From a virus (taxonomy: Duplodnaviria; Caudoviricetes), in IMG/VR virus record IMGVR_UViG_3300049182_000084, positions 1-56,583 of that record: a stretch of DNA of 56,583 nt; one strand, 5' to 3'. The position numbers and the translations under genes are program-made. This document shows, piece after piece, positions 2,871 to 52,136 of this stretch. Below the pieces are notes generated by a model. The model was not told where the DNA came from. It ran no database searches and saw nothing but the letters and a program-made list of their open reading frames with translations. Position 1 is the first letter of the stretch; each line of letters opens with the position of its first letter.

Positions 2871-3367
2871 TTCTTGCCCTTCGGGGGCTTCGGCAGGTCG
2901 TCCAGGCCGCCGAACCCGGACATGCCGCCCATGTGCTCACCGCCGCGGCCGCGCTTGGCGGCCTGGATGCGGCGCTCGTACATCGTCTCGGCGAATTCCT
3001 TCATGCCGGCGAGCTCGGCACGCAGCTCCTCGATGCGCTTGGCGAGCACGGGGTTGGCCATCGCATCCTTGATGTCCTGCAGCAGCGCCCAGTCGCTGTC
3101 CGTGACGGTGTGGCGGTCGCGGAAGTCTCCTGGCGGTGCTGGTGGGGGTGGAGCGACCTCGCGGCCCTTGCTGGTCGCGACGTCGTTGGCCAGCAGTGGG
3201 TATCCCGTCACTTCGCTGATGATTTGCAGCTGGCCGAAGCTCGGCTCGTGGTGACCGTTCTCCCACGCCGATACGTTGCCCTTGGTGACGTGCAGCTTGT
3301 CGCCAAGCTGCTGCTGCGTCAGCCCCTTGTGAGTACGGGCTGCGCGCACCCACTTCGATAGCTCCAT
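2867..3367 (-). CDS. cI: Phage repressor, XRE-family HTH, no S24 peptidase domain
   Basis: MELSKWVRAARTHKGLTQQQLGDKLHVTKGNVSAWENGHHEP is an HTH_3 pattern; divergent from cro across three operators. Confidence 0.85.
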   Translation of the reverse strand: MELSKWVRAARTHKGLTQQQLGDKLHVTKGNVSAWENGHHEPSFGQLQIISEVTGYPLLANDVATSKGREVAPPPPAPPGDFRDRHTVTDSDWALLQDIKDAMANPVLAKRIEELRAELAGMKEFAETMYERRIQAAKRGRGGEHMGGMSGFGGLDDLPKPPKGKK

Positions 3368-3469: not shown

Positions 3470-3850
3470 ATGGACGACATCAAGCACCCCATCGACCGAG
3501 CAGCCGACATCGTCGGTTCGCAGGTGGCACTCGCAAGCCTGCTGGGCGTCAGCAAGGCGGCCGTCAACCAGTGGAAGGACCCCGGTCGCAAGGTGCCTGC
3601 CGAGAAGTGCCCGGCGATCGAAAAGGCCACCGGTGGCGCCGTGAGATGCGAAGACCTGCGGCCGGATGTCGCGTGGGGCGTGTTGCGCGAGCAGGCGCCG
3701 GAAACGCCTCAGGACGCGCAGTCTCAGGCCGAGCGCGCCGCGGCCTCGCTCCACCGCGAGATCGAGGCCATCGTCTACGGTGCGACGGCACGGCCCGGCT
3801 CGCACAGCGAGAGCGAGCGGCCCACCAAGCCAGGCAGCGAGCGGCGCTAG
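3470..3850 (+). CDS. cro: Cro/YdaS-like regulator with C-terminal extension
   Basis: RAADIVGSQVALASLLGVSKAAVNQW...VPAEKCPAIEKATGGAVRCEDLRPDVAW. Confidence 0.85.
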   Translation: MDDIKHPIDRAADIVGSQVALASLLGVSKAAVNQWKDPGRKVPAEKCPAIEKATGGAVRCEDLRPDVAWGVLREQAPETPQDAQSQAERAAASLHREIEAIVYGATARPGSHSESERPTKPGSERR

Positions 3851-3873: not shown

Positions 3874-3996
3874 TCACGTCCTGCGCTCCAGCTGCAGCAC
3901 CAGCGTCGCGTGCAGGTCATCCACTGCTTTGCGCAAGAACGCCGCCACTGCGCGGCGCGCCCATTCGAGGGGTTCGAGGGATTCGTTGTCGGCCAT
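3874..3996 (-). CDS. Small antisense protein between cro and cII-like gene (40 aa)
   Basis: Own translation MADNESLEPLEWARRAVAAFLRKAVDDLHATLVLQLERRT; AGGA upstream. Confidence 0.45.
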   Translation of the reverse strand: MADNESLEPLEWARRAVAAFLRKAVDDLHATLVLQLERRT

Positions 3997-24186: not shown

Positions 24187-24876
24187 CTACTCGACTTCAA
24201 GGCGGAGATCGCGGCGACGAGCGCGGTGTGCCAGAAGCAGGAGGCCGGCCAGCAGCAGGGCGTAGGTCCCTGGTTCCGGGGCGGCGCTGGCGCGGATGTC
24301 CACCAGCGACTGAGCCTTGCGGGTGAGGGTGCCGGACGCCTCGTCGGCGCCGGTCTCGAAGTCGAACGACACCAGCCCGGAGCCGTTGACGAAGTCGGAG
24401 AAGGTCTGGGCACCCACGGTCAGCCAGGCGCCGATTTCGGCCACGCCGCCAAGCGCATTGGCGTCGAGCTCGAACGTGACGCGGGTGTGCGGCGCAACGA
24501 CGGCAATCCATGAGTCCTGGATGAACGATCGCGAGTACGGCTTGCCGTTCGACGTGCTGTGCGTGGTGGCCGACAGCGATTCGCCCCAGGTGAAGAAGCT
24601 CAGCCACGTCCCCGAGGTGCCGGGATCGAAGAAGCCGACCTGTTCCGAGGACCAGAACCCACCGCCGTTCGGATCGGCGACCCACGACAGGTTCCCGTGG
24701 AACCCGCCTTGTCCGGTGAGGGTGACGCCGGCCGTGATGCCGTCGGCTTGGTCCGTGTCGACGATGGTGAGCCGAACAGGGCCGACTGATGCGGTAGCGG
24801 GAGGATTTGCTGCAGAAACTGCAAACGCGCACGCCAGCGCGCTCGCGCCGACGGCCAAGCACCAGTGGTTGCCCAT
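24187..24876 (-). CDS. PEP-CTERM sorting-domain protein (antisense moron)
   Basis: GAGGAGG SD, signal peptide, C-terminal APEPGTYALLLAGLLLLAHRARRR. Confidence 0.9.
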   Translation of the reverse strand: MGNHWCLAVGASALACAFAVSAANPPATASVGPVRLTIVDTDQADGITAGVTLTGQGGFHGNLSWVADPNGGGFWSSEQVGFFDPGTSGTWLSFFTWGESLSATTHSTSNGKPYSRSFIQDSWIAVVAPHTRVTFELDANALGGVAEIGAWLTVGAQTFSDFVNGSGLVSFDFETGADEASGTLTRKAQSLVDIRASAAPEPGTYALLLAGLLLLAHRARRRDLRLEVE

Positions 24877-33540: not shown

Positions 33541-35451
33541 ATGGGAATCCTCGACGTCCACGCAGACGAGCTGCTCCAGGCCAGCCGCGCGACGCCGTTC
33601 ATCGCGCCGCCGCGGCCGACGCCCAAGTTCAGCGCCTGGGGAATCTCCACCGCAGTGCCGCGTGGAGCCGCCGCCGGGGCCGCCGAGACGACCGGTTTCT
33701 GGGCGGACATCGTCGGCGCCTTCGGACAGGTCATTGCGGCGACCGATCCACTCATCGAAGCAACCGCGCCGCGCGATGTCCGCGAGCGGCTGGCGCAGGG
33801 CCAGAAAGAGGCTGAGCAGCGCCTGCGCAACGAGGGCGTGGACTTCAGCAGCGAGGCCGGCGACCTGTTCCGAGGCGTCGGCCGCAGCTACCGGCCAGAC
33901 CCGGCGACGGCGCACGCCGCCGAGGATGTGGTCTTCGGCTTCACGCGCTTCGCCAGCAAGGCGGTCGGCTATTCGGTGGCCGGCGGGCCGGTGGTGGGGG
34001 CGGCGCTCACTGGCGCCGACGAGGCGCTCCAGACTGCCGACGACCTCCGGCTGCAGGGCGTAGACCTCGCCACCAGAACGAAGGCCGGCGCGCTGGCCGG
34101 CGTCGCAGCCGGCGCGGGCGTGGTGCTCCCTGTGGCCGGCAAGACGCTGGCGCAGACGGCGGGCCTGGTAGCCCTGGGCGGGCCGCTGTCGTTCTCCGGA
34201 CAGCAGGCGGCCACGCGCTACATCCTCGACAACGCCGGGTATGAGAAGCTCGCGAGCCAGTACGACCCTTTCGACCCAGTGGGCCTGGCGGTCTCCACCC
34301 TGGTCCCGGCCGGTTTCGGCGCATGGGGGCTGCGCGGTGCGCGCCGGCGTGCTGCAACGCAGGAGCCGATCGGCGAGACGAAACCGGGCCAGAGTGAGCC
34401 GAAACCGCCTGAGACCGCGCCGGAAGTGGCTGCACGTGAAACGATGGTGCGCGCCGAGCACGTCGACGCCGCGCGCGTTGCGCTGATCCGCGAAACGGTC
34501 GACTCGTGGAACCTTGCCCGGCCGGACGATGCGCGCGCCGCGGCTGCGCACCTCGAGGCGTTCGCACGGGCGCAAGACCAGCTCGCCGCCGGCCAGCGCG
34601 TCGCCGTCTCGGACATCGTCCCCGCCGAGCGCATCGCTGTGTCGCGCGCGTTGGACCAGATGATCACCGGCCTGCAGTCGGCGCGCGATGACTTCGTGGC
34701 CGCCGCCGCAGACCTTGCCGACCCCGGCGCAGTTCGCCTGATGCGAGAGGAACTGGCCAGCCTCGAGGGCCGCCGGCCAGATGTCTCTGACGCGGCCATT
34801 CGCGAGGCGGTCAAGCAGATCCAGGCCGCCGAGGGCGTCAGCTACAAGGCGGCGCTCTCGGAGGCGAAAAAGCAGGCCGCCGAGCAAGCCGCGGACTTCG
34901 GCGCCCGCATCTCGCGCATCGAGGACGCCATCGAGCGCAACGCGGAAGCACAGCGCGCGAGCCAGGAACTGCGGCAGCTGGACCGCCAGATCGAGGCGAT
35001 GCAGGCCGAGCGGCAGCAGATCGACGCACCGAGCGGAGCAGCGGAGACCGACATCGCACTGGCGGCGCGCCAGCTGGTCGACCAAGTCGCCGAGGGCATC
35101 GAGACCTTGACCGGCCTGCCGGCGCGCGACGTGGCGCCTGAGATCGGCCGAGCCATGGGGCTGGAGCCGGAGGTTGCGCCGGCCGCCGCGGCGCACCCCA
35201 GCCCGGCCGAGCCTGCCGCGCCGGCGGCGCGCGGCGGGCAACCGGGGCACGGCGAGGTCGCATCGCTAGATGCGCGCCTGGCCGCCGTGGAGCAGCAGTT
35301 GCCCGAGCTGCAGGTCATGGTCGACGGGATGGAGCGGCCGGTGCCGCTGCGCGAGTTCCTGGAGCGGGTGAGGGCAGAGGCGGCGGAAGAAGCCGCCGAC
35401 GCGCCGCTGTACCAGGTAGCGGCGCAATGCGCGTTGCTGAACGGGGTCTAG
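33541..35451 (+). CDS. Internal virion / ejection protein
   Basis: 636 aa, Gly/Ala hydrophobic stretches then coiled coil; synteny. Confidence 0.7.
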   Translation: MGILDVHADELLQASRATPFIAPPRPTPKFSAWGISTAVPRGAAAGAAETTGFWADIVGAFGQVIAATDPLIEATAPRDVRERLAQGQKEAEQRLRNEGVDFSSEAGDLFRGVGRSYRPDPATAHAAEDVVFGFTRFASKAVGYSVAGGPVVGAALTGADEALQTADDLRLQGVDLATRTKAGALAGVAAGAGVVLPVAGKTLAQTAGLVALGGPLSFSGQQAATRYILDNAGYEKLASQYDPFDPVGLAVSTLVPAGFGAWGLRGARRRAATQEPIGETKPGQSEPKPPETAPEVAARETMVRAEHVDAARVALIRETVDSWNLARPDDARAAAAHLEAFARAQDQLAAGQRVAVSDIVPAERIAVSRALDQMITGLQSARDDFVAAAADLADPGAVRLMREELASLEGRRPDVSDAAIREAVKQIQAAEGVSYKAALSEAKKQAAEQAADFGARISRIEDAIERNAEAQRASQELRQLDRQIEAMQAERQQIDAPSGAAETDIALAARQLVDQVAEGIETLTGLPARDVAPEIGRAMGLEPEVAPAAAAHPSPAEPAAPAARGGQPGHGEVASLDARLAAVEQQLPELQVMVDGMERPVPLREFLERVRAEAAEEAADAPLYQVAAQCALLNGV

Positions 35452-35663
35452 CCGATGCGCTCGACGACGTGCGCCACCAGCGCCAGGCCGCTGACCAGCA
35501 CGAAGGCGGCGACCATGTACTTCCACCACGACCACCACGCGCGCAGCGAGTTGCGCACGTGTCCGGTCGCCCCGAGCAGGAACAGTGGCAGGACGAGTGA
35601 GATCAGTGCGATGGCGCCGATCGTCTTCAGGAGGGTGAGCAGGTGAATCCCCGTTGCATCCAG
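35448..35663 (-). CDS. Small antisense 2-TM membrane protein (start codon unclear)
   Basis: LLKTIGAIALISLVLPLFLLGATGHVRNSLRAWWSWWKYMVAAFVLVSGLALVAHVVERIG fills the gap between virion genes; no in-frame ATG/GTG just before the first TM, so the start given (CTG) is a guess. Confidence 0.5.
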   Translation of the reverse strand: MDATGIHLLTLLKTIGAIALISLVLPLFLLGATGHVRNSLRAWWSWWKYMVAAFVLVSGLALVAHVVERIG

Positions 35664-38129
35664 GCGCTGAATTCTGCGCGCACTGCCGCCGGCCGGCAAC
35701 CGATGACCCCGGCGCAGATACGTGCGATCGACGATCGCATGCGCGCCACGATGCGACAGCTTGCTCGCACCGACCCGCAATGGCAGTCGCTGACACCGGA
35801 CCTGCGCCTGCTGCGCGCTGCCCAGACTGCGGCCTCCGACATCGCTGCCGAGGCGACCCGCAAAGTGCAGAACGCCCAGACGCAGGCGCTGAAGACGGCC
35901 GAGACAGAGGTGCGGCTGCAGGACCAGCAGCAGCGTATGGGCTGGAGCCGCAGCAAGACCCTGGTCGACGACATGGACCAGGCCGACAAGGCGATCAACG
36001 CCATCCGCAGCGAGTACACCGGGCGACTCATGGACACCCTGGAGGCAGCAGACAGCGGGGAGGGCGCCGGACTCGGCCGCCGCGCGCTGATGCTCCTGTT
36101 CGACGCCCAGAACCCGGCAATGACCCGCGATCTGGCGGTGGAGATCTTTGCGCAGGGCAGAGCCGGCACCGGCAACACGCTGGCCGCCAAGGGCGCGAAG
36201 GCCTGGCTCGATACGATCGAGGCAATGCGCCAGCGCTTCAACGCCGCCGGCGGAGACGTCGGGAAGCTGGACTACGGCTACCTGCCGCAGCCGCACGACG
36301 AGGGCCGGATGCGCGTCGCCGGGCGTGACCGATGGGCGCAGGACACGCTGCCGCTGCTCGACCGCTCCCGCTACGTGCTCGACGACGGCAGCCGCATGAG
36401 CGACGCCGAGGTGCTCGACGTGCTGCGTGCCGTGCACGAGACGATCACCACCGACGGGATGAACAAGACCCAGCCGGGCCAGTCTCAGGGCGCCGGCGCG
36501 CGCGCGAACCGCGGCAGCGACAGCCGCGAGATCCACTTCAAGGACGGGCAGTCGTATCTGGCCTACGTCAACGAATACGGCGCTGGCTCGATGTACGACG
36601 CGATGGTCAACCACATCGGAGGCCTCGCGAAGGACATCGGCCTGGTGGAGCGCTACGGGCCGAATCCGAACGCGCAGATGAGGCTGCAGTTCGACCTGGC
36701 ACGCCGCGCCGACGGCGGCACGGCCACGCGCGTCTTCGGCATGCGGCCGCAGGCGTACTGGGAGGTTCTCTCTGGCACGACTGGCACGCCGGCATCGCCG
36801 CGGATCGCGCAGATCGGTCAGCACGTGCGCAACATCGAGACCTTCGGAAAGCTGCAGGGCGCGGTGCTGTCGTCAATCACTGACCTCGGCACCTACTTTG
36901 TGACGACGGGCTTCAACAAGCTCGGGTACTGGGAGGCACTGTCGAACATCGGCAAGGCGTTCAACGGCGACACCCGCGACTTCCTGTCCATGCACGGGAT
37001 GATCGCCGAGAGCATGAGCTCGAACCTGAACCGCTGGAGCGGCGAGCACATCCGCAATAACTGGTCCGGCCGCGTGGCCAACGCCACCATGCGCCTATCG
37101 CTCATGAACGCCTGGACCGACACCCTGCGCCACGGCTTCGCGCTCACGATGATGAATGGCTTGGCGCGGCAGACTCGCAAGGCCTGGGCGCAGCTGGACG
37201 AGTACGACCGCTTCCTGCTCCAGCGCAAGGGCATGACCGAGGATGACTGGCAGGTCCTGCAGCAGGTGCAGCTCGTGTCGCACCGAGGCCTGGACTTCCT
37301 GACGCCGGAGGCGATCAGCCAGACGGGAGACCCGCGCGCGCAGCAGGTGACGACCAAGGTGCTCAGCTACGTGTTGGACGAGTCGCAGTTCGCGATCATC
37401 AACCCGGATCTCGCCACGCGCGCCGCGGCGAGTTTCGGGGGCACGCAGGCTGGCACGGTTCGCGGTGAGGCTGCGCGCGCGGTGATGCAGTTCAAGTCCT
37501 TCCCGATCGCGATGATGTCGCGGCACTGGCGCCGGATGATCGAAACGCCGCAGGATCTGCAGGGCGCGCCGGTGATGGCAAACCGCCTGGCCTACGGTGG
37601 CGCGATGCTGGTGAGCCTCACCGCCCTTGGCGCCATCGCCTTCCAGACCAAGCAGATCGTCGGCGGCAAGGATCCGGTGGACATGACGACGGGCAAGTTC
37701 TGGCTTCGCGCGGCCGCGCAGGGCGGGGCGCTCGGCTTCTACGGCGACCTGCTGCTGGGCGACACGACATCCGATCTCACATCGAAGGATTCAATGTTCC
37801 GCCTGCTCGGGCCCGCAGCTGACAGCGGCGCTCAGCTGTGGGAGCTGACGAAGGGCAATCTCGACGAGTACCTCGCAGGCAAGGACGCGCACGCCGGCGC
37901 CGAGGCGATGCGCTTCGCGCGCGGGCACCTGCCGCTACTGAACCTCTGGTATGCGCGCTCAGCGATCGATCACATGGGGCTGCACGCGCTGCAGGAGTCA
38001 CTCTCGCCTGGTTACCTCTCACGCATGCAGCAGCGCGCGCGCAAGGAGTGGGACCAGGACTACTGGTGGCGCCCGGGTGACGGCCCCCCAGACCGCGCCC
38101 CATCGTTCTCTGAAATCGCAGGAGGCTGA
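35643..38129 (+). CDS. Large internal virion / ejection protein
   Basis: MNPRCIQA..., GYLPQPHD, SREIHFKD, MQFKSFP, GGALGFYGD. Confidence 0.8.
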   Translation: MNPRCIQALNSARTAAGRQPMTPAQIRAIDDRMRATMRQLARTDPQWQSLTPDLRLLRAAQTAASDIAAEATRKVQNAQTQALKTAETEVRLQDQQQRMGWSRSKTLVDDMDQADKAINAIRSEYTGRLMDTLEAADSGEGAGLGRRALMLLFDAQNPAMTRDLAVEIFAQGRAGTGNTLAAKGAKAWLDTIEAMRQRFNAAGGDVGKLDYGYLPQPHDEGRMRVAGRDRWAQDTLPLLDRSRYVLDDGSRMSDAEVLDVLRAVHETITTDGMNKTQPGQSQGAGARANRGSDSREIHFKDGQSYLAYVNEYGAGSMYDAMVNHIGGLAKDIGLVERYGPNPNAQMRLQFDLARRADGGTATRVFGMRPQAYWEVLSGTTGTPASPRIAQIGQHVRNIETFGKLQGAVLSSITDLGTYFVTTGFNKLGYWEALSNIGKAFNGDTRDFLSMHGMIAESMSSNLNRWSGEHIRNNWSGRVANATMRLSLMNAWTDTLRHGFALTMMNGLARQTRKAWAQLDEYDRFLLQRKGMTEDDWQVLQQVQLVSHRGLDFLTPEAISQTGDPRAQQVTTKVLSYVLDESQFAIINPDLATRAAASFGGTQAGTVRGEAARAVMQFKSFPIAMMSRHWRRMIETPQDLQGAPVMANRLAYGGAMLVSLTALGAIAFQTKQIVGGKDPVDMTTGKFWLRAAAQGGALGFYGDLLLGDTTSDLTSKDSMFRLLGPAADSGAQLWELTKGNLDEYLAGKDAHAGAEAMRFARGHLPLLNLWYARSAIDHMGLHALQESLSPGYLSRMQQRARKEWDQDYWWRPGDGPPDRAPSFSEIAGG

Positions 38130-45312: not shown

Positions 45313-46161
45313 TTATCGACAAGCGGCGAGCCTCAGCCTCTCCACTGCCTGCTGAAGCGCGTGCGCCGTGACGTCGCGCGCGATGAGCCCGTGCAGGTTG
45401 GCGTCCGGGTGTATACCGTCCGGTAGGTACACCGTCCAGCCAGGCAGGCCGAGCACGTAGGCCTGCACGTCCGCCAGCTGCGCGCCAGTCTCGGCCGCAA
45501 CCTCGCGCATTGCTGCGGCACGCGGGGCGCTGTCGTAGACCGCGGCCGTGGTCGGGCTCGGCGTCTGGAGGATCACGGCGGCCGGCGCGCTGGCCAGCGT
45601 GCGCAGGTTCGCCCGGTAGCGCTCGATCGTCACGCCCAGGGGCGCGTAGGCGTCATTGATGCCGTGGTTCACCAGCACCACGTCGGCTACCACTGAGCCG
45701 GGCCATGGAGCGTTCAGTCCGTCCGTGCCGGTGACGAGCTGCTCGGAGGTGGTGCCGCCTACCGCGCGGTTGTCGACCAGCACCGCGCCGGCGCCGAAGC
45801 GGCGATCGAGCTCGGCCTGCAGGTAGGGTGCGTGCGCGCGGTTGACGCTGTCGCCGAAGACTTGGACGCGGACTACGCGCGGGGTGCAGGTTGGGGGCTG
45901 GACCTGGGTGTCGCCGCCGCCTCCGCAGGCCGCCAAAGCCGTGGGGAAGAAAATGGCCAACAAGGCGCGTTTGACGCACTTTCCGCGTTCAGCGCGTGGT
46001 TTCTCCGCCCTCTGTGCACACTGTGCGCCGTGTGCACCGCCCCGATTGCAAATCCGTGTAGGTCGGTTCGACTCCGGCCCGCGCCTCCACCTCTCAAACG
46101 CCCCCTCTGCGGGGCGTTTTTCTTGGGGGGCCAATGGGGAAGTTTTTGGCAAAGTGCTCAT
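45313..46161 (-). CDS. SGNH/GDSL hydrolase lipoprotein; reading frame spans attP
   Basis: FGDS, NRAVGG, NHGIND, DGIHP blocks; lipobox LAAC near 45930. The only in-frame ATG upstream of the lipobox is 46161, overlapping the int stop. Confidence 0.8.
   Translation of the reverse strand: MSTLPKTSPLAPQEKRPAEGAFERWRRGPESNRPTRICNRGGAHGAQCAQRAEKPRAERGKCVKRALLAIFFPTALAACGGGGDTQVQPPTCTPRVVRVQVFGDSVNRAHAPYLQAELDRRFGAGAVLVDNRAVGGTTSEQLVTGTDGLNAPWPGSVVADVVLVNHGINDAYAPLGVTIERYRANLRTLASAPAAVILQTPSPTTAAVYDSAPRAAAMREVAAETGAQLADVQAYVLGLPGWTVYLPDGIHPDANLHGLIARDVTAHALQQAVERLRLAACR
45942..46153. other. attP: tRNA-Cys 3' core with flanking arm-type repeats
   Basis: Core GATTGCAAATCCGTGTAGGTCGGTTCGACTCCGGCCCGCGCCTCCA (46044-46089). 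Direct repeats TGGGGAAG-N4-TGGC(C/A)AA at 45942 and 46135. TGTGC three times at a 9-bp period (46013-46035). Confidence 0.88.
46096..46121 (+). terminator. Terminator for the reconstituted tRNA
   Basis: AAACGCCCC-N6-GGGGCGTTT-TT. Confidence 0.8.
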
Positions 46162-47114
46162 GCTTTCCTCGCTCCGATTGAGTTGATGGCCGCCTCCAGC
46201 GCGTCGTCATGCAGGTGGGCGTAGCGGCCCGTGCTGGCGGGGCTGCGGTGCCGCAGTACCTTGCCCACCACTGCCAGGCTGTGACCTTGGCTCAGCAGGT
46301 CCGAGGCCGTCGAGTGACGCAAGTCGTGGAAGTGCAGATGCTCCATCCCGGCACGCGCTCGAGCGGCGCGGAAGTGGTAGCCAACGATGAAGCGGGTCGG
46401 CCACTCGTAGTCCACGAGGCAGCGGATCTTGCGGTGCACCGGCATACGCACCGGGTCGCCGTTCTTCGAGTCCGGCAGCACGAAGCGGCCATCCTCCACT
46501 GTGGCGGCCAGAATCTCCCCCAGCCGCATGCCGCTGTAGAACGCGATGCGGATCAGCGCGCGGGTCTCCCAGTGGTCGCAGGCGCGCGCGAGCGCCAGCA
46601 TCTCGCCGCGGGTCACGTACACCTGCCGCTCGTTGCTCACCTCCGGAACGACGACGCGGGCCCCGGGGTCGTGCTCGGTCATCTTGTGGCGCTTCCAGGC
46701 GTAGCGGCACGCGGCGCGCAGGTAGGAGATGCGGTTCTTGATCGTGGCCGGCGCCAGCGCGCCGTCCTGGTCCTCGAAGTACTCGGCGCAGATGTCGGGG
46801 AGTTCGTCGATAGCCCGCCCGGTGTACCAGTCGAGCATGCCGTCGAGCTCCTGCTTGATGTTCGCGCCCGACTTGAGGTTGGGGACGCGCTCCTTCAGGT
46901 AACGAGCGACAGCTTCGTCAACGGTGCGCCGAGGCTTGGCGATTCCCGTCGCGAGCGCGTACAGGGCCGCGCCTTCCTTGCGGTCGAAGGCGTCGGCTTC
47001 GGTGCGGGTCCACCCGGCCGGGAGAAGCTGGCGCCTCCGAATGCGTTGCCCGTTGATGCGGCGATCGAAGTCGAAGCACCAGCAACCGGTGCGCTTGTCG
47101 CGGTAGATCGACAT
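46158..47114 (-). CDS. int: Tyrosine integrase
   Basis: SGMRLGE, SKNG, HDLRH, LRH, RYAH. Confidence 0.95.
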   Translation of the reverse strand: MSIYRDKRTGCWCFDFDRRINGQRIRRRQLLPAGWTRTEADAFDRKEGAALYALATGIAKPRRTVDEAVARYLKERVPNLKSGANIKQELDGMLDWYTGRAIDELPDICAEYFEDQDGALAPATIKNRISYLRAACRYAWKRHKMTEHDPGARVVVPEVSNERQVYVTRGEMLALARACDHWETRALIRIAFYSGMRLGEILAATVEDGRFVLPDSKNGDPVRMPVHRKIRCLVDYEWPTRFIVGYHFRAARARAGMEHLHFHDLRHSTASDLLSQGHSLAVVGKVLRHRSPASTGRYAHLHDDALEAAINSIGARKA

Positions 47115-47260
47115 GATGCGAGGTAGGTCTCCACGTCCTCGGGTTTGAAGCGCACGGCGCGGCCATGCCGGAAGCAGGCGAGCCGGCCCGCGGCGGCAAG
47201 ATCGTACACGGCCCGTTTGGACAGCCCGAGCTGGGCGGCGACGGCGGCAGCGGTGAGCAT
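46895..47260 (-). CDS. xis: Excisionase (HTH_17/MerR-like) overlapping the int 5' end
   Basis: MLTAAAVAAQLGLSKRAVYDLAAAGRLACFRHGRAVRFKPEDVETYL. Confidence 0.8.
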   Translation of the reverse strand: MLTAAAVAAQLGLSKRAVYDLAAAGRLACFRHGRAVRFKPEDVETYLASCRSTATSAPVAGASTSIAASTGNAFGGASFSRPGGPAPKPTPSTARKARPCTRSRRESPSLGAPLTKLSLVT

Positions 47261-47880
47261 CACTCGACCTCGAACCGGTTGCGCTTCCGGCTGTTCTCGC
47301 TGCCGGTGAGGACCTGCAGGTTCTCGGCGACGTGCAGGCCGCTCACCAGCTCGCCCTGCAGCGGGTAGCGGTGGTCGACGTGGTGCTCGATGCCGGTCGA
47401 GACAGTCAGCTCACGAGCGCGCGCATAGATCGCCTGGATGGCTTCCATGTTCGCCCAGGGCGGCGTGCGCCGCAGCCGCGCAGCGCGGCGCTTCGCTGCG
47501 TGGTGGCGCACGATGGCGGCATGTTCTTCAGCGCGCCGGCGGGCGATCTCGCGCCGCTCGGCGGCGTTGGGCTTGCGCGGCTTCGGAAGAGGCTCTGCGT
47601 TGGCGCGCCATTCGGCTTGGCGGCGTCCGAGCGGCGTTTCCTCCCAAGGAATCGCAGCCGGCGGAGTGACGGCCTGGGCCTGCTTGGTGGGGGTCGGGGC
47701 AGCAGGTTGGCGCGCCGCTTCGACCGCTTCGAAGTGCGCCCGGTAGAGCACCACCGGGCCACCGCGCGGGCGGCATGCCCGCGTGAAACCCTGCTTGTGC
47801 AACTCGCGCAACTGGGCGGCAGGCTGCGTGAGGCCGTTGGTGAGCTCCTGCAGCTCGGCGTCGGACAGTGTCAGGGACAC
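47260..47880 (-). CDS. DUF4224-like domain fused to HNH endonuclease
   Basis: N-terminal LSDAELQELTNGLTQPAAQLRELHKQGF...GPVVLYR; C-terminal RRTPPWA...HHVDHRYPLQGELVSGLHVAENLQVLTGSENSRK. Confidence 0.75.
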   Translation of the reverse strand: MSLTLSDAELQELTNGLTQPAAQLRELHKQGFTRACRPRGGPVVLYRAHFEAVEAARQPAAPTPTKQAQAVTPPAAIPWEETPLGRRQAEWRANAEPLPKPRKPNAAERREIARRRAEEHAAIVRHHAAKRRAARLRRTPPWANMEAIQAIYARARELTVSTGIEHHVDHRYPLQGELVSGLHVAENLQVLTGSENSRKRNRFEVE

Positions 47881-47967
47881 GCCGCCTCCCTCCAGGGCAG
47901 CAACGGGCAGCGCTCCGCAGGCGCGCGCTCCTGTGGCCGGCCTACACTTCCACGAGGAGGGACGGCA

Positions 47968-48348
47968 ATGGCGGATTTCAGGGACTTCGATGATGTCGCG
48001 GCGTGGGTTCGCGAGCAGCCAGGCGACCCGGTCGCAGTGCTCGACCAAGCGATTGGAACGGATCGCTTCTCGGGTCGGAATCGAACCCTGGCGGTGAGGT
48101 ACCGCGACAAGCTCATGGAGGAGGTGATACAGGCAGAGGGCGAGCGGCGGGAACGCCTTGCTGCGGTAGAGCGGGAACTGCGCGCGCGCGAAGTGACGTG
48201 CGCCGAGATGTCCGCCCAGGCGGCAGTCGACTCCGCGAACCACGCTGCTGCGTCGGCACGATGGGCGAAGTGGGCGCTGCTCGTCTCCGGGGTTGCTCTG
48301 CTTGTGTCCGTCGGGCCGCAAATTGGCAGACTGATCAAGGCGCTGTAG
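47968..48348 (+). CDS. Antisense moron: coiled coil with C-terminal TM
   Basis: SD GAGGAGG, TACACT at 47943, WAKWALLVSGVALLVSVG. Confidence 0.75.
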   Translation: MADFRDFDDVAAWVREQPGDPVAVLDQAIGTDRFSGRNRTLAVRYRDKLMEEVIQAEGERRERLAAVERELRAREVTCAEMSAQAAVDSANHAAASARWAKWALLVSGVALLVSVGPQIGRLIKAL

Positions 48349-48355
48349 CGTCGCA

Positions 48356-49273
48356 TCACCGCACCTCCGGGAACCCGTCGTGCTGCACGCCGTCGAGCAG
48401 GCGGCCTGCGGCCTTCTTGCCGACGCGCTCGATGCGATAGCGCATGCGTCCGCCGTTGACGCTCACAGCCGAATAGCGATCAGGCGCGCCGGGCGCCTCG
48501 ATGCGGCAGAGGTTGCCCGGGAGTCGCGTCGCCTCCGGGTGAATTGGCTCCCGCGATGTCTCGGCCCACTCGCCCCACTGCTTGAACATGAACGGCACGC
48601 CGGCCGCGGCGCACTGGTCGCGCAGCGAGCGGAACCAGTCGGGGTGGGCCGGCCGCGCCTTCGGGCCGCTCTCGCCGCCGGCGATGATCCAGTCGATGGT
48701 CGCGCCGCGCCGCACGAGCTCAAGCCCGCCGGCGAGCGCTTGCCCCAGGTCCACCGGACCGAGCATCGGCTCGATCGACAGGAACCGAACGCGCGCCGGC
48801 ACCGCCAGCAACTTCGGGATGTCGCGGTCGGCTTCCTCCTGGTTCACCACCGTGGCGCCGATCCAGACGTTGGGCACAAGGTCGCCACCCATGTAGCGCG
48901 GTAGCATGGCCGCCGCATTGCCGATCCGCTTCGTCAGCAGCAGCCAGTCGAGGTGAGGGGTTGCCGCGATCAGTTCGTACAGGTCTGCGCGCCAGTAGTC
49001 AGGCACCGCGTTGTCGAACACGTCGGCCAGCGAGGCGCAGAACACCCGGAAGCGCCGGCCCTCGCGCTCGGCCTGCGCGTTCCACTTCGGCGGCAAACGC
49101 CAGTTCGCATCGGTCGTGCGTCGCCGCGGCTCGCCGACGCCCCAGCGCACGGTGCCGCTGCGCTTCGCCCATGCCTCGGCGTAGCAGCCGTCGCAGCCTG
49201 GCGACACCTTCGTGCACCCCGTCCAGGGGTTGAACGTGTGGTCGGTCCACTCGATTTTCGTGTTCTCAGCCAT
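48356..49273 (-). CDS. DUF5131 (phage Gp37/Gp68) radical-SAM-like protein
   Basis: TKIEWTDHTFNPWTGCTKVSPGCDGCYA, LLLTKR, FLSIEPMLG, WIIAGGESG, FKQWG. Confidence 0.92.
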   Translation of the reverse strand: MAENTKIEWTDHTFNPWTGCTKVSPGCDGCYAEAWAKRSGTVRWGVGEPRRRTTDANWRLPPKWNAQAEREGRRFRVFCASLADVFDNAVPDYWRADLYELIAATPHLDWLLLTKRIGNAAAMLPRYMGGDLVPNVWIGATVVNQEEADRDIPKLLAVPARVRFLSIEPMLGPVDLGQALAGGLELVRRGATIDWIIAGGESGPKARPAHPDWFRSLRDQCAAAGVPFMFKQWGEWAETSREPIHPEATRLPGNLCRIEAPGAPDRYSAVSVNGGRMRYRIERVGKKAAGRLLDGVQHDGFPEVR

Positions 49274-49482
49274 CACACCCTCTCCAGATTCATTGCCCAC
49301 CCCGTCCCGCCGCCGACGAACCACACATCACCCTTCCGCCCCGAGCCGGTGACGTGGCTCACGGTGTAGACCTTCCGGTCCATGTACGGGGGCTTGAATC
49401 GAACGCGGTCGCCGGGTTCGAACGTTGGCGGGCCGAGCGGCTTGAACGGCTCGTGGCTGCCGGGCATGTGGTCGCGCGTCAT
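49273..49482 (-). CDS. Small beta-barrel-like protein (69 aa)
   Basis: FEPGDRVRFKP...; TGATG overlap with the DUF5131 start. Confidence 0.6.
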   Translation of the reverse strand: MTRDHMPGSHEPFKPLGPPTFEPGDRVRFKPPYMDRKVYTVSHVTGSGRKGDVWFVGGGTGWAMNLERV

Positions 49483-49510
49483 ACTGGGAGCTCCAACGGA
49501 GGAGGTGCAA

Positions 49511-49840
49511 ATGGATGCAGCAGTGGCAGCTCTGATCGGTGCCGCGATCGGGACACTGGGGTCGCTCGGCAGCACGTGGGTGCAGCAGAGGCATCAGAGC
49601 CGACGGGAGCGGCTGAAGGTCGCCGCCGATCTCGGCCTTGCCGACTACAAGGAGACGCTTGAGCTCGCGAAGGCCCAACCAGGCAGTTCAGCCGTGCCTC
49701 CGATGTCATGCTTCGTGGCCTACCACGCCGACATCCTGAACGCGCTAGCCGATGGGGGGCTGGACACGGAAAGGCTGGCAGCCATTGATGCCAAGCAGAT
49801 GGAAGTGCTGCGAGCGACGGCGGAGCGCAGAGGCCGCTGA
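49511..49840 (+). CDS. Antisense moron with N-terminal TM
   Basis: SD GGAGGAGG, CATACT at 49480, MDAAVAALIGAAIGTLGSLGSTWVQQR. Confidence 0.75.
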   Translation: MDAAVAALIGAAIGTLGSLGSTWVQQRHQSRRERLKVAADLGLADYKETLELAKAQPGSSAVPPMSCFVAYHADILNALADGGLDTERLAAIDAKQMEVLRATAERRGR

Positions 49841-49985
49841 CCTCCACTGCCATCACCAAGCAGCCGGGCCCTCCGCCAAGCAGCAGCACCGCGACGGCGA
49901 GCACCGCCAGCGCGGCGAGGGTGACGACGGCGTCGCGCAGGGCGTTCATACTGGCGCCCTCATAGTTCCGGTCGAAGGAGCCATC

Positions 49986-50183
49986 ATGGACACGCACCGT
50001 ATCGAAGTGAGCCGCGTGAAGGTTGGGTATCCGCAGGGTGGAGACCAGATCGAACTCCAGGTCGATGCGCGTGTGGAGCGCACTGCCACAGAAGTTGGCA
50101 AGACGCCGACGTCCTGGTTGACGATGACGAAGGCGCAGGCCGCGGTGCTGCATTCGCTGCTCGGAGACCTGCTGGGACGGTAG
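49986..50183 (+). CDS. Antisense moron (65 aa)
   Basis: SD AAGGAG, CATACT at 49947, ...WLTMTKAQAAVLHSLLGDLL. Confidence 0.65.
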   Translation: MDTHRIEVSRVKVGYPQGGDQIELQVDARVERTATEVGKTPTSWLTMTKAQAAVLHSLLGDLLGR

Positions 50184-50190
50184 GTGGCGA

Positions 50191-50403
50191 TCATTGCTGC
50201 GGCCCCTTTGGCAGCTCGGCCCAGTGCGTGACGTCGTAGACCGGCATGGCGGTCACGTCTCGCCAGACTGGCTTGCCGGCCTCGTCAGTTCCGTCGAGGA
50301 ACCCATCGAAGACGCCGGTCTCCGCGCCCGAGCACAGCACGGTCAGCTCAGCGTCGGGCAGCTGCTCGGCGGCAGGGATCCAGGTGATGGTCTCGGTGCT
50401 CAT
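50191..50403 (-). CDS. DUF551-like protein
   Basis: WIPAAEQLPD...VTHWAELPKGP. Confidence 0.8.
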   Translation of the reverse strand: MSTETITWIPAAEQLPDAELTVLCSGAETGVFDGFLDGTDEAGKPVWRDVTAMPVYDVTHWAELPKGPQQ

Positions 50404-51914
50404 GCGGCCCTCCGCTGCTCGAGCTCGACAAAGTTCGCCCGGACGATGGCCGCGGCCACCGGCGGGCACACGCTGTTTCCGCACATGCGAACCTGTGCCG
50501 CCTTCGACAGCACGCGGCCGTCGGCGCCGCGGTCGATGGCATAGGTGTCGGGGAAGCCCTGCGCACGGTACAGCTCGCGCGGTTGCAGCATGCGCATGCC
50601 GATGTCGGCGATGAAGTACTCCTCGCCGTGCACGGTCACGAGGCCGAAGCGGTCCTTCGTCGTGACGGTGTGCAGCGGCTCGTCCAGGCGCGGGTCTTGG
50701 TCGGTGCCGTAGTACTTCACGAGCAGCGCGCGGACCTCGGCGTGGTGGAAGCCCTGGGCACTCACCGTGTGCAGGGGCTCATTCGCCGCAGCACCGATGT
50801 TCGTGCCGCGCAGCTTTGCCAGATGCGACGTCACGAGGTGATGGTGGTCCTGCGTGGTCACCGTGCTGCACGGCAGGGCCAGAGGCCAGCCTGGCGACTC
50901 CTTGCCGCCAAAGTGCTTCGCGAGGAACGCGGCGACCAGCGCGTGCTTCTGGCCGTCGACGCAGGTGCCGAGGGGCTTGTCGAGCCCGGGTGCGCGCGGC
51001 GCCTGGCCTGGCCGCTCCCCGTAGCCGGTCTGGATCAGTGTCGGCGCGGCCAGCGCGAGCTCGCCTCGCTTCGCTGTGGTGATCGTGCGCAGCGGCTCGT
51101 CGATCGGATGGACATTGCCGTTCTGGTTGTGCGTCACCGGCACGATGAACGGCTTCGCTGCATCGATGACAAAGCGCTTCAGCCCGTGGGCGATGCGCCG
51201 GAGCGTCGCCTCGACCAGCGGCCTGTCACGCTCGAAGATGCTGGGACACGGGATCGACCAGTCGATGCACTCTGCGGCCGTGCGGTACGGCTTGCGGCCG
51301 GGCCCGTGCGTCGGCTCGGGCCAGACGATCGGCATGCCGTCGCGACGCGCGGTCAGGAACAGGCGCTTGCGGATCGTCGGCGCGCCGAAGTCGCACGCGC
51401 GCAGCTCGCGGTGCTCGACCTTGTAGCCCAGGCGCTCGAGCGCGCGCTTCCAGGTCCTAAACGTGCGGCCCTTGCGATCAGGGCAGACACGGCCGTTGGG
51501 CAGCACCGGGCCCCACGTCTGGAACTCCTCCACGTTCTCGAGATGGATCACGCGCGGGCGCGCCAGCTTGGCCCACTTCACGACGACCCAGGCCAAGCCG
51601 CGGATCTTCTTCGATACCGGCTTCCCGCCCTTCGCCTTGCTGAAGTGCTTGCAGTCCGGCGAGGCCCACAGCAGGCCGACCGGGCGGCCCTCGGTCACCG
51701 CGACAGGGTCGACCTCGAAGACGTCGGACACGAAGTGCTGCGTCTGCGGGTGGTTCGCCTGGTGCAGGCTCACCGCCTCGTGGTCGTGGTTGACCGCGAT
51801 GTCGACGTGCCGGCCGATGGCCTGCTCGATGCCGAGCGACGCGCCGCCGCCGCCGGCGAACAGATCGACGACGAGCTCGTGCGCGAGCGGGAGGATGAGC
51901 TGGCGAGCGGTCAT
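50400..51914 (-). CDS. DNA (cytosine-5) methyltransferase
   Basis: DLFAGGGG, ASPDCKHFS, ENVEEF, RKRLF, GNSVCP; five PLxTxT-type repeats in the variable region. Confidence 0.93.
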   Translation of the reverse strand: MTARQLILPLAHELVVDLFAGGGGASLGIEQAIGRHVDIAVNHDHEAVSLHQANHPQTQHFVSDVFEVDPVAVTEGRPVGLLWASPDCKHFSKAKGGKPVSKKIRGLAWVVVKWAKLARPRVIHLENVEEFQTWGPVLPNGRVCPDRKGRTFRTWKRALERLGYKVEHRELRACDFGAPTIRKRLFLTARRDGMPIVWPEPTHGPGRKPYRTAAECIDWSIPCPSIFERDRPLVEATLRRIAHGLKRFVIDAAKPFIVPVTHNQNGNVHPIDEPLRTITTAKRGELALAAPTLIQTGYGERPGQAPRAPGLDKPLGTCVDGQKHALVAAFLAKHFGGKESPGWPLALPCSTVTTQDHHHLVTSHLAKLRGTNIGAAANEPLHTVSAQGFHHAEVRALLVKYYGTDQDPRLDEPLHTVTTKDRFGLVTVHGEEYFIADIGMRMLQPRELYRAQGFPDTYAIDRGADGRVLSKAAQVRMCGNSVCPPVAAAIVRANFVELEQRRAA

Positions 51915-51917
51915 GGC

Positions 51918-52136
51918 TCAGTGCCTCGTCGACTCGGGCTCGGGATGCGCCACCACGCCGACGTCCTGCAGCTGCACGACCTGGCCGGCGGCGACCATGG
52001 CGCGGATCGCGGCGAGCGCCTGGCAGGCGTGGCACGTGCACGGCTGGGTGCGGCGGCGCCACTGGGCCACGCGCGTGCGCATGGTGGCGCGCTGCTGGTC
52101 TTCCTGGCGCAGGCGGCGGGTGGTGTTCGCGCTCAT
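51918..52136 (-). CDS. Hypothetical protein with CxCxxC
   Basis: MSANTTRRLRQ...PCTCHACQAL. Confidence 0.55.
   Translation of the reverse strand: MSANTTRRLRQEDQQRATMRTRVAQWRRRTQPCTCHACQALAAIRAMVAAGQVVQLQDVGVVAHPEPESTRH

What the first reader, a model, noticed from the sequence alone, without database searches (positions are those of the whole stretch)
47871..50194. Three antisense genes in the early operon, each spanned by a 'bridge' ORF linking the upstream stop to the downstream start
Seen: plus-strand genes 47968-48348, 49511-49840 and 49986-50183 interrupt the minus-strand operon. Each is covered by an open minus-strand frame with coupled ends. 50194-49946 has ATGA overlaps at both ends. 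49949-49479 ends in ATGA on the start at 49482. 48359-47871 starts GTGA on the DUF5131 stop and ends just inside the gene starting at 47880. Bridge peptides look non-protein-like over the antisense parts. Inference: bridges keep ribosomes on the lytic transcript (coupling, avoiding Rho polarity), letting the phage carry lysogen-expressed antisense cargo inside an operon. Caveat: antisense frames are often open in GC-rich DNA; the exact start/stop overlaps are the signal.
Basis: partly seen in the sequence, partly recalled or inferred. Interest (0 to 1): 0.8.

Follow-up and report, generated by a model that had tools for sequence, protein, structure and literature searches.

The report
Stop-free bridge ORFs over backward genes
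Three small genes sit backwards inside this phage's early operon, and the operon strand across each of them is free of stop codons and joined stop-to-start to the neighbouring genes, most likely so that ribosomes keep translating the early messenger RNA across the inserts.

Summary
The plus-strand genes 47968-48348, 49511-49840 and 49986-50183 are real: each is the best of six frames by codon score, each has a strong SD, and g2 has 21 homologues. They interrupt a minus-strand RecT/YqaJ...methylase...DUF5131...integrase operon. Three minus ORFs with non-coding statistics cover them: ATGA-to-ATGA, then to ATGA, and GTGA to a TGA 7 nt inside the next gene.

None of the three is in the codon-aligned antisense register that is open by default in GC-rich DNA. 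Synonymous shuffles leave each open in only 4-17% of trials (joint 2.5e-4 to 7.7e-4).

The pattern recurs in phages fetched only for having a DUF5131 gene. Of 13 tight antisense inserts, 7 carry such a bridge against 1.2 expected under random phase (P about 2e-5). With the discovery loci included it is 11 of 20. Of 17 loose inserts, none has one.

Stops are depleted only in the bridge frame, also in the spacers that no called gene covers (2/469 codons against 35/934).

Selection for translation across the inserts is the best reading. The purpose (coupling, Rho avoidance) and lysogenic expression of the cargo are untested. This scan reported the same design on other genomes; my paper searches listed no phage precedent.

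The parts
50400..51914 (-). C-5 cytosine DNA methylase, operon gene upstream of the region
   Evidence: Pfam PF00145, E 5.7e-33. Annotated homologues in phages.
50191..50403 (-). DUF551 gene. Its TGA (50191-50193) is overlapped by the ATG of bridge 1.
   Evidence: Pfam PF04448, E 2.1e-6. Parser call. Sequence.
49946..50194 (-). Bridge ORF 1 (82 aa) with ATGA at both ends. Register B over g3.
   Evidence: Codon score -8.4 over g3. Open in 3.8-8.9% of synonymous shuffles.
49986..50183 (+). g3, a backward cargo gene of 65 aa with SD GAAGGAG. Orphan.
   Evidence: Best of six frames, +12.4. Parser call. No homologue among 2 candidates.
49946..49953 (+). Motif TCATACTG. It holds the stop of bridge 1 and the start of bridge 2 on the minus strand. 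It may be a -10-like CATACT, 33 nt before the g3 ATG.
   Evidence: The same 8-mer lies before plus-strand genes in L003 and L004.
49479..49949 (-). Bridge ORF 2 (156 aa). The first 36 codons (49949-49841) look like a real hydrophobic peptide. The rest is register C over g2. It ends in ATGA on the start at 49482.
   Evidence: Codon score +10.8 for the first 36 codons (GC3 0.92) and -55.3 over g2. Open in 8-17% of shuffles.
49511..49840 (+). g2, a backward cargo gene of 109 aa with SD GGAGGAGG. N-terminal membrane helix followed by three further helices.
   Evidence: 21 homologues at 42-71% identity, alignment A1. Model pLDDT 81.8. Best of six frames, +14.7.
49479..49486 (+). Second copy of TCATACTG. 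It overlaps the stop of bridge 2 and the ATG at 49482, 25 nt before the g2 ATG.
49273..49482 (-). 69-aa operon gene downstream of bridge 2, with its own GGAG. ATGA overlap with the DUF5131 start at 49273.
   Evidence: (+13.6).
48356..49273 (-). DUF5131 gene. Its TGA is overlapped by the GTG and ATG of bridge 3.
   Evidence: Pfam PF07505, E 3.1e-91. PHROG 2045.
47871..48359 (-). Bridge ORF 3 (162 aa). GTGA/TGATG start preceded by GGAGG. Register B over g1. Stops 7 nt inside the next gene.
   Evidence: Codon score -11.9 over g1 and -29.5 over the whole ORF. Open in 3.6-12% of shuffles.
47968..48348 (+). g1, a backward cargo gene of 126 aa with SD GAGGAGGG. Helical with a C-terminal membrane anchor.
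   Evidence: Best of six frames, +13.8. Relative in phage locus L001 at 34% identity. Atlas clusters named 'putative transmembrane protein'.
47260..47880 (-). DUF4224-like/HNH-type endonuclease gene downstream of bridge 3. GTG start with its own GGAGG.
46158..47114 (-). Tyrosine integrase, at the end of the minus-strand operon
   Evidence: Pfam PF00589, E 6.4e-16.

Best explanation
The minus strand from RecT/YqaJ through methylase, DUF551 and DUF5131 to integrase is a lambda-pL-like early operon whose genes are chained by stop/start overlaps. Three small accessory genes (g1, g2, g3) were placed backwards and tightly between operon genes, each with its own ribosome-binding site.

Across each insert the operon strand keeps a reading frame free of stops. 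The frame begins on, or 1-2 nt from, the stop of the preceding ORF. It ends on, or 7 nt into, the start of the next operon gene.

Proposed working (inferred): a ribosome that finishes the upstream gene re-initiates on the overlapping start. It translates a meaningless peptide through the antisense stretch and terminates on the next start codon. The early mRNA is therefore never left untranslated, so there is no Rho loading on the C-rich antisense stretch, and the downstream gene receives ribosomes.

Shown: the anatomy, the non-coding nature of the bridge products, and frame-specific stop depletion that recurs in unrelated inserts of related phages.

Inferred: that translation happens, and which benefit drives it.
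For: 1) Anatomy and coupling.

2) The cargo genes are real.
- Each is the best of six frames.
- The DP gene parser recovers them.
- g2 has 21 homologues.
- g1 has a relative in L001.
- In 8 homologous pairs of backward genes, differences fall at positions 1/2/3 of the backward frame as 253/207/354.

3) The bridges are not protein-like.
- Codon scores are negative.
- No Pfam or PHROG match for the three window bridges.
- 0 of 10 bridges of related loci match a PHROG, against 1 of 10 backward genes.
- Bridges 1 and 3 have no tblastn hit in the other loci.

4) The window's bridges are not default open frames.
- They are in registers B, C, B.
- They stay open in 0.036/0.082/0.085 of 20,000 within-gene synonymous permutations, 0.122/0.167/0.038 with phage codon usage, and 0.071/0.111/0.089 with cargo usage (whole bridges).
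- The products are 2.5e-4 to 7.7e-4 (my arithmetic).

5) Recurrence.
- 37 unique backward inserts have parser scores of at least 8. Of the 20 tight ones, 11 have a bridge: an overlapping start, with the first stop at -3 to +15 of the downstream start.
- 8 of these end exactly in ATGA.
- 2.11 are expected when the phases of both junctions are randomised (exact P 2.3e-7).
- Without the loci that led me to the pattern: 7 of 13 against 1.22 (P 1.9e-5).
- 0 of 17 loose inserts are bridged.

6) Frame specificity.
- In the spacers between the backward gene's start and the downstream start of tight inserts, stops per codon are 2/469 in the bridge frame and 18/467 and 17/467 in the other two frames (Fisher 4.6e-5).
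- There is no such depletion in loose inserts (19/554, 16/556, 7/553).
- Register-B frames over backward genes are stop-free in 4 of 5 cases when they are the bridge frame, against 1 of 18 otherwise.

7) g2 family. The bridge frame is open in both embedded copies (W register C, L004 register A). In 9 other loci only 1 of 27 antisense frames is open.

8) Composition. Operon-strand RNA over the three cargo genes is C-rich and purine-poor: (C-G)/(C+G) +0.11 to +0.18 and purines 0.42-0.44. In the operon's own genes the values are -0.09 to +0.075 and 0.50-0.55. Rho anchors on C-rich untranslated nascent RNA (abstracts of PMC6797219 and PMC5909445, seen in the listing).
Against: - No expression data: no RNA run was listed, so translation of the bridges is inferred only.
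- In this window the downstream genes have their own SD, so coupling is not needed for initiation.
- The same phage has a tight backward membrane-protein gene in the late operon (35448-35699) with stops in all three plus frames. It also has a loose one (24187-24876) without a bridge.
- 9 of 20 tight inserts, and all 17 loose ones, lack a bridge.
- In most related cases (15 of 20) the bridge is in register A. That register is open passively: 13 of 16 as the bridge frame against 5 of 7 as another frame. Openness there is uninformative; only phase and junctions carry signal.
- Gene calls in related loci come from my own parser, not a standard gene finder. Start-codon errors would affect spacer counts.
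- Inserts in different phages are not all phylogenetically independent.
Confidence: 0.6

Rival explanations
1. Chance. Long open antisense frames are common in 68% GC DNA, and NTGA/ATGA overlaps are frequent, so three covered genes arise without selection.
For: - Register-A antisense frames are open in 59-77% of gene-length windows in this window.
- g1 has two open antisense frames and g3 three.
- A 445-aa off-frame ORF exists in L004.
- A g2 homologue beside a tRNA gene (L011) has an open register-C frame with no operon around it.
- A start overlapping a TGA stop only needs A, G or T before it.
Against: - The window's bridge frames are registers B, C, B, with per-gene chance of 0.04-0.17.
- 7 of 13 independent tight inserts are bridged against 1.22 expected.
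- Stop depletion is limited to the bridge frame, also in spacers.
Confidence: 0.07
2. Historical by-product. The bridge is the shell of a former operon gene, or the cassette moves between phages by recombination at gene boundaries together with its flanks. Coupled ends and phase are then inherited rather than maintained.
For: - 15 of 20 tight inserts are codon-aligned (register A). This is what overprinting on, or replacement within, an existing gene would leave.
- Conserved junction words (TCATACTG; ATCCTAGCATGA, 12 hits in 10 of 100 loci, all on the operon strand) sit exactly at the downstream start. They could be recombination joints.
Against: - The g2 family occurs in many unrelated contexts and is bridged in two different registers. 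It was not born in place.
- Bridge codon scores are negative, unlike recent gene remnants.
- Stop depletion in register B and in spacers is specific to the bridge frame.
- The junction word reads as an extended -10 promoter for the backward gene: TGnTAnnnT at -46 to -24 in 12 of 47 backward genes against 5 of 1265 other genes.
Confidence: 0.15
3. Dual coding. The bridge ORFs encode functional proteins that overlap the cargo genes on the other strand.
For: - The first 36 codons of bridge 2 look like a real hydrophobic peptide.
- Bridge 3 has a canonical GGAGG followed by GTG/ATG.
- Antisense overlapping genes have been proposed in E. coli (bioRxiv 10.1101/2020.11.18.388249; listing and start of abstract only).
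Against: - Codon scores over the overlapped parts are -8.4, -55.3 and -11.9.
- The position-wise GC pattern is that of an antisense frame.
- No family hits and no tblastn similarity between bridges of different loci.
- Substitutions in homologous pairs follow the cargo frame.
Confidence: 0.07
4. Annotation artefact. The plus-strand genes are shadows and the minus ORFs are ordinary coupled operon genes.
For: The coupled ends are what normal operon genes show. g3 is an orphan. g1 has one distant relative.
Against: - The plus frames score best of six.
- They have strong SDs.
- g2 is a conserved family with a confident fold.
- In 471 windows of 90 codons from confident genes, the codon-aligned shadow never outscored the sense frame.
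Confidence: 0.03

Closest known systems
Ambigrammatic narnaviruses: reverse ORF over the RdRp gene (Retallack et al. 2021, PMC8316113, abstract read; DeRisi et al. 2019, PMC6884476, listing only)
   Same: A stop-free frame on the strand opposite a real gene, with no homology of its product, and selection to keep it open. [quoted passage not shown] It also raises the idea that translation itself, with ribosomes protecting the RNA, is what matters.
   Different: - Those are RNA viruses of eukaryotes in which the reverse ORF spans the whole genome segment.
- Here a dsDNA phage has short frames that bridge only the inserts and are locked stop-to-start to neighbouring operon genes.
- In this window the register is not codon-aligned (B, C, B).
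- The lead to this comparison came from earlier notes of this scan.
Translational coupling and Rho-dependent operon polarity in bacteria and phages (general knowledge; abstracts of PMC5909445 and PMC6797219 seen in the listing)
   Same: ATGA/GTGA stop-start overlaps. Dependence of downstream expression on upstream translation. Rho acting on untranslated, C-rich nascent RNA.
   Different: Classical coupling links two real genes. Here the linking ORF has no meaningful product and lies antisense to another gene. No paper describing this appeared in my searches.
Prophage morons or accessory genes with their own promoter (e.g. PMC7067206; listing and start of abstract only)
   Same: Small genes of atypical composition (GC3 0.75 against about 0.88), with their own SD and a promoter-like motif, inside a phage operon region. 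They are often membrane proteins.
   Different: Classical morons are flanked by a promoter and a terminator (recalled). Here the cargo's stop lies 7 nt from the upstream gene's stop, no terminator-like site flanks the cargo, and it is overlaid by a bridge frame.
Shadow ORFs of GC-rich genomes
   Same: Long open frames antisense to real genes.
   Different: Shadows are mainly the codon-aligned register and have no fixed relation to neighbouring genes. The bridges are phase-locked to both neighbours and include other registers and spacers.

Membership tests
Translationally coupled ORF chain (termination-reinitiation) | The stop of the upstream ORF overlaps or abuts the start of the next ORF on the same strand. 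| tested here: met
   ATGA at 50194-50191, 49949-49946 and 49482-49479. GTGA/TGATG at 48359-48354. The stop of bridge 3 lies 7 nt inside the gene at 47880.
Translationally coupled ORF chain (termination-reinitiation) | Downstream translation depends on upstream translation. | not testable with these tools
   Needs reporter or ribosome-profiling experiments. No RNA run was listed.
Ambigram-like stop-free reverse frame | An uninterrupted frame covers the whole gene on the opposite strand, more often than codon usage predicts. | tested here: met
   Zero stops over g1, g2 and g3 in the bridge frames. Chance 0.036-0.167 per gene.
Ambigram-like stop-free reverse frame | Codon-for-codon alignment of the two frames, achieved by avoiding TTA, CTA and TCA. 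| tested here: not met
   The window's bridges are registers B, C, B. In related phages 15 of 20 tight inserts are aligned.
Ambigram-like stop-free reverse frame | The product of the reverse frame is not conserved as a protein. | tested here: met
   Negative codon scores. No family or tblastn hits.
Moron (autonomous accessory transcription unit) | Own promoter upstream of the cargo gene. | tested here: inconclusive
   The sigma-70 consensus scan found 0 sites in 47200-50600. A -10-like CATACT inside TCATACTG lies 25-33 nt before g2 and g3 and before relatives in L003 and L004. Related backward genes are enriched for TGnTAnnnT: 12 of 47 against 5 of 1265.
Moron (autonomous accessory transcription unit) | Terminator after the cargo gene. 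| tested here: not met
   The only two terminator-like sites (48614 minus, 49227 plus) lie inside DUF5131, not after g1, g2 or g3. Only 7 nt separate the cargo stop from the upstream operon stop for g1 and g3.
Moron (autonomous accessory transcription unit) | Composition unlike the host phage. | tested here: met
   GC3 is 0.745-0.758 in the cargo genes. In most flanking operon genes it is 0.84-0.92, and 0.78-0.79 in the small ORFs 49273-49575 and 50191-50484.
Antisense overlapping protein-coding gene pair | Both frames show coding signatures or conservation. | tested here: not met
   Only the plus frames do.

The most novel reading that the evidence does not exclude
Temperate phages with translationally chained early operons may follow a design rule. 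A gene can be inserted backwards and tightly only if the operon strand across it stays stop-free in the single frame that starts on the upstream stop and ends on the downstream start. Ribosomes are then relayed across the insert.

This window shows that the rule can be enforced even out of codon register, which constrains the synonymous sites of the cargo.

In relatives one 12-nt junction word (ATCCTAGCATGA) would do three things at once. It would stop the bridge, start the next operon gene, and on the other strand supply the TG and hexamer of an extended -10 promoter for the cargo.
Probability: 0.45. Interest if true: 0.85.

Novelty: new variant of a known kind. Interest (0 to 1): 0.78.

Why it matters
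If real, this is a rule of phage genome architecture that annotation pipelines discard, because bridges are dropped as shadow ORFs.

- It would explain how accessory genes can sit head-on inside essential operons without polar effects.
- It would predict hidden constraints on the synonymous sites of cargo genes.
- It would offer a bacterial DNA-virus counterpart to the 'translation for its own sake' idea raised for ambigrammatic narnaviruses.
- It is directly testable with a silent-in-cargo stop codon, and it bears on the design of engineered phages that carry payload genes.

Tried and rejected
- Homology of the cargo. g1 and g3 have no homologue in the word-indexed protein search and no viral-contig relative, except g1 in L001. 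g2 had none in viral contigs. There is no Pfam, PHROG or PADLOC function for any of them.
- g2 fold search. Nothing significant in the PDB. The viral library gave only an uncharacterised protein of Ralstonia phage RS-PI-1, whose gene lies beside an integrase and is not embedded.
- Looking for g2 in 401 genomes of the family of L004's genome found only that genome's own copy.
- DNA search of 46000-52000 against phages matched mainly the methylase, and in one record also the DUF5131 gene, and gave no close relative.
- The sigma-70 consensus scan gave no promoter in 47200-50600.
- Expression. No RNA holder was listed.
- Within-gene synonymous permutation is uninformative for register-A bridges (P 1.0 for L004, 0.67 for L001). 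I therefore replaced it with phase randomisation and frame-specific stop counts.
- My first greedy gene caller missed the small genes and was replaced by a DP parser.
- Ideas considered and dropped:
  - In-place inversion of a former operon gene. It would not supply an SD or a promoter, and it gives register A only for codon-aligned breakpoints.
  - De novo birth of the cargo by overprinting. g2 and others have homologues in other contexts.
- Paper searches for a phage precedent and for P1 immI listed nothing that describes bridge ORFs. Supplements of papers were not consulted.

Full report
**Setting.** The window is a 56.6-kb virus record with 64-72% GC.
- Its minus strand from about 56.4 kb down to 46.2 kb carries RecT (PF03837), a YqaJ exonuclease (PF09588), DUF7694, DUF3846, a C-5 methylase (PF00145), DUF551, DUF5131, a DUF4224-like/HNH-type gene and a tyrosine integrase.
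- An HTH_3 repressor-like gene (2867-3349, minus) faces a Cro/YdaS-like gene (3470-3850, plus).
- By analogy with the lambda pL operon (recombination genes ... xis, int; general knowledge), calling this an early operon is reasonable. It remains an inference.
- Many neighbouring genes of this operon overlap by ATGA or GTGA.

**The observation.**
- Bridge 1: ATG 50194 overlaps the DUF551 stop. The frame runs to TGA 49948-49946, which overlaps ATG 49949.
- Bridge 2: from that ATG the next frame runs to TGA 49481-49479, which overlaps the ATG 49482 of a 69-aa operon gene.
- Bridge 3: GTG 48359 and ATG 48356 overlap the DUF5131 stop. GTG lies 3 nt and ATG 6 nt after the GGAGG inside the DUF5131 end. 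The frame runs to TGA 47873-47871, 7 nt inside the gene that starts at GTG 47880.

Two details differ from the finding.
- The frame of bridge 2 is open from 50252.
- Its first 36 codons (49949-49841), which lie between g3 and g2, look like true coding sequence for a hydrophobic peptide (GC3 0.92, codon log-odds +10.8, SD-like GAGGG). After that the same frame scores -55.3 over g2.

**Which strand codes.**
- A codon log-odds model trained on the window's confident genes gives +13.8, +14.7 and +12.4 for g1, g2 and g3. No other frame exceeds +1.8. The bridge frames score -11.9, -55.3 and -8.4.
- A dynamic-programming parser that maximises total score recovers g1-g3 with SD cores of 5-6 nt.
- g2 belongs to a family of 21 further proteins at 42-71% identity, with invariant residues. 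Its model is confident (pLDDT 81.8): an N-terminal helix of the hydrophobic MDAAVAAL... stretch followed by three helices.
- g1 has a 34% identical relative in a related phage contig, L001. g3 is an orphan.
- No function could be assigned to any of them.
- The bridges match no family.

**Is it chance in this window?** Antisense frames fall into three registers.
- In this window's confident genes, the codon-aligned register (A) is open in 59-77% of windows of 65-126 codons.
- Register B is open in 33% (65 codons) and 12% (126 codons). Register C is open in 3.6% (109 codons).
- The bridges use B (g3), C (g2) and B (g1).
- With the amino-acid sequence kept, 20,000 synonymous shuffles per gene and model leave the bridge frame open as follows (whole bridges):

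| Codon model | g1 | g2 | g3 |
|---|---|---|---|
| Own codons permuted | 3.6% | 8.2% | 8.5% |
| Phage codon usage | 12.2% | 16.7% | 3.8% |
| Cargo codon usage | 7.1% | 11.1% | 8.9% |

- The joint probability is 2.5e-4 to 7.7e-4 (my multiplication).
- This is suggestive but post hoc, so I looked for independent cases.

- L001, a related phage with a similar methylase, has two backward genes, one of them the g1 relative, between the methylase and a downstream gene. A 208-aa frame starts in TAATG on the methylase stop and ends 7 nt inside the next gene.
- L004 is a Variovorax prophage found through the g2 family. It has three backward genes alternating with operon genes.
  - Two are bridged (GTGA...ATGA, and ATGA...+10).
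  - The frame on the third starts at GTGA but overshoots the next start.
- I then fetched 80 viral contigs solely because they encode a DUF5131 protein. I called genes with the same parser in 94 loci and listed 64 short runs of backward genes flanked by genes of the dominant strand.

**Formal counts.**
- After removing duplicates and requiring parser scores of at least 8 for the backward gene(s) and both neighbours, 37 inserts remained.
- 20 were tight (backward stop within -12 to +20 nt of the upstream stop) and 17 were loose.
- A bridge was defined as a start codon overlapping the upstream stop, with the first in-frame stop at -3 to +15 of the downstream start.
- 11 of 20 tight inserts have one, and 8 of these end exactly in ATGA. 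None of the 17 loose inserts has one.
- The control shifted each of the two junctions by 0, 1 or 2 bases (nine phase combinations) with the sequences otherwise unchanged. It gives 2.11 expected (exact Poisson-binomial P 2.3e-7).
- Leaving out W, L001, L003, L004 and L020: 7 of 13 against 1.22 (P 1.9e-5).
- With score thresholds of 5 or 12, or an exact-ATGA criterion, P stays between 3.6e-8 and 4.9e-4.
- The frame that begins on the upstream stop is open up to the downstream start in 13 of 20 tight inserts. The other two frames are open in 1 and 4.
- 15 of 20 bridge frames are in register A (binomial P 1.7e-4 against one third).

**Could the backward genes of related loci be shadows of ordinary coupled genes?**
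- For the bridged cases the backward gene scores +8 to +29 and the bridge -23 to +3. The exception is the L004 g2 homologue (+23.7 against +14.5), which is backed by the family.
- In 471 windows of 90 codons from confident genes of 14 loci, the aligned shadow never beat the sense frame. Those genes also trained the model, which is a caveat.
- Eight homologous pairs of backward genes differ most at the third position of the backward frame (253/207/354).
- One of 10 backward genes, and none of 10 bridges, matches a PHROG.

**Frame-specific stop depletion.** Register A is open passively: 13 of 16 when it is the bridge frame against 5 of 7 when it is not. The informative parts are therefore the following.
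- Spacers between the backward gene's start and the downstream start, which no called gene covers. In tight inserts the bridge frame has 2 stops in 469 codons. The other two frames have 18 in 467 and 17 in 467 (Fisher 4.6e-5). Loose inserts show 19/554, 16/556 and 7/553.
- Register B over backward genes. It is stop-free in 4 of 5 when it is the bridge frame, against 1 of 18 otherwise. This is about 0.003 by my hypergeometric arithmetic, and the window's own genes are among the five.
- Caveat: a wrongly placed start of a backward gene would turn some spacer into register-A sequence.
- Within the g2 family, the bridge frame is open in both embedded copies, in different registers. In the nine other loci only 1 of 27 antisense frames is open. 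I checked only some of those nine for context, and several contigs are too short to tell.

**Junction motifs.**
- TCATACTG occurs twice in the window (0.41 expected; 5 of 100 shuffles reach 2). Both copies lie exactly where a bridge stops and the next minus ORF starts, 25 and 33 nt before the ATG of g2 and g3.
- The same word precedes the g2 homologues in L003 and L004, and a second backward gene in L004.
- In L003 no minus gene starts there. The word therefore goes with the backward gene.
- In other phages the junction reads ATCCTAGCATGA: 12 hits in 10 of 100 loci, all on the operon strand. On the other strand this is TCA-TGC-TAGGAT, an extended -10 pattern.
- TGnTAnnnT lies 24-46 nt before 12 of 47 backward genes against 5 of 1265 other genes.
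- I read these words as promoter elements of the cargo that overlap the downstream start codon. This is an inference. The consensus scan found no classical promoter in the window region.
- At several such junctions no AGGAG-like core is visible just before the downstream ATG, so those genes may depend on coupling. In the window the downstream genes do have an SD.

**Mechanism.**
- Shown: a frame-specific, phase-locked absence of stops across tight backward inserts, without conservation of the product.
- Inferred: ribosomes finishing the upstream gene re-initiate on the overlapping start, translate across the insert and terminate on the next start.
- A plausible benefit is protection from Rho. 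Operon-strand RNA over g1-g3 is C-rich and purine-poor ((C-G)/(C+G) +0.11 to +0.18; purines 0.42-0.44), unlike the operon's own genes. Rho acts on untranslated, C-rich nascent RNA (abstracts of PMC5909445 and PMC6797219).
- Delivery of ribosomes to the next start, or melting of sense-antisense duplexes, would fit equally well.

**Evidence against generality.**
- 9 of 20 tight inserts and all 17 loose inserts lack a bridge.
- The window itself has a tight backward membrane-protein gene in the late operon (35448-35699, score +25) with stops in all plus frames. It also has a loose backward gene (24187-24876).

**Comparison with what is known.**
- The closest analogue is the reverse ORF of ambigrammatic narnaviruses. 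[quoted passage not shown] That lead came from earlier notes of this scan.
- Those notes report the same phage design in at least 21 other genomes. I treat them as leads. My counts were made before reading them and are independent of them.
- Three full-text searches for a phage precedent listed none. This is not proof of absence, since subscription journals are not covered.
- I file the finding as a new variant of known principles: translational coupling, Rho polarity and ambigram-like frames.

**Verdict.** Selection for an open, coupled frame is well supported statistically across phages and moderately within this window. Its purpose and the expression pattern of the cargo remain untested.

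Noticed in passing
window 35448-35699 (-) and 24187-24876 (-): Two further backward genes lie in the plus-strand late/structural region. One is a tight 83-aa membrane-like gene (codon score +25). The other is a loose 229-aa gene with a signal-peptide-like start (+58). Neither has a bridge frame.
   Followed up: partly
L040 4110-4120 and 4993-5003, L048 3049-3059 and 4544-4554, and 8 more loci: A conserved 11-12-nt junction word, ATCCTA(G/A)CATG(A), lies at the start codon of operon genes that follow a backward gene. On the other strand it reads as an extended -10 promoter (TGCTAGGAT) about 24 nt before the backward gene's leader.
   Followed up: partly
L004 3450-3968 (-): A 172-aa protein has ends that resemble the N- and C-termini of DUF5131 (MSENSKIEP... 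and ...GRLLDGREWNGVPS). Its middle carries a LAGLIDADG-like motif (LAYLAGMIDGDGYI). It may be an intein or homing-endonuclease remnant that replaced most of the DUF5131 domain.
   Followed up: no
window 49841-49949 (-): A 36-codon hydrophobic peptide start (MNALRDAVVTLAALAVLAVAVLLLGG...) has GC3 0.92 and its own SD-like GAGGG. Its frame has no stop until 49479, so any product would carry a 120-residue tail encoded antisense to g2. No homologue was found in the fetched loci.
   Followed up: partly
L101 (Ralstonia phage RS-PI-1, NC_047816.1, gp01) and L011 3950-4288: Distant g2 relatives lie next to an integrase (RS-PI-1) and next to a tRNA gene (L011). These are the edges of integrating elements, which fits g2 being lysogeny-associated cargo.
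   Followed up: partly
window 47260-48321 (-): The frame of the DUF4224/HNH gene stays open for 147 codons upstream of its GTG start, across almost all of g1 (register A). The ORF listing therefore reports a 353-aa ORF. It is a plain shadow extension (codon score +1.8 over g1).
   Followed up: yes
window 3874-3996 (-): A possible 40-aa backward ORF (score 10.8) lies between the Cro-like gene and the next plus-strand early gene. The plus frame that begins one base before the upstream stop is open across it but has no start codon overlapping that stop.
   Followed up: no
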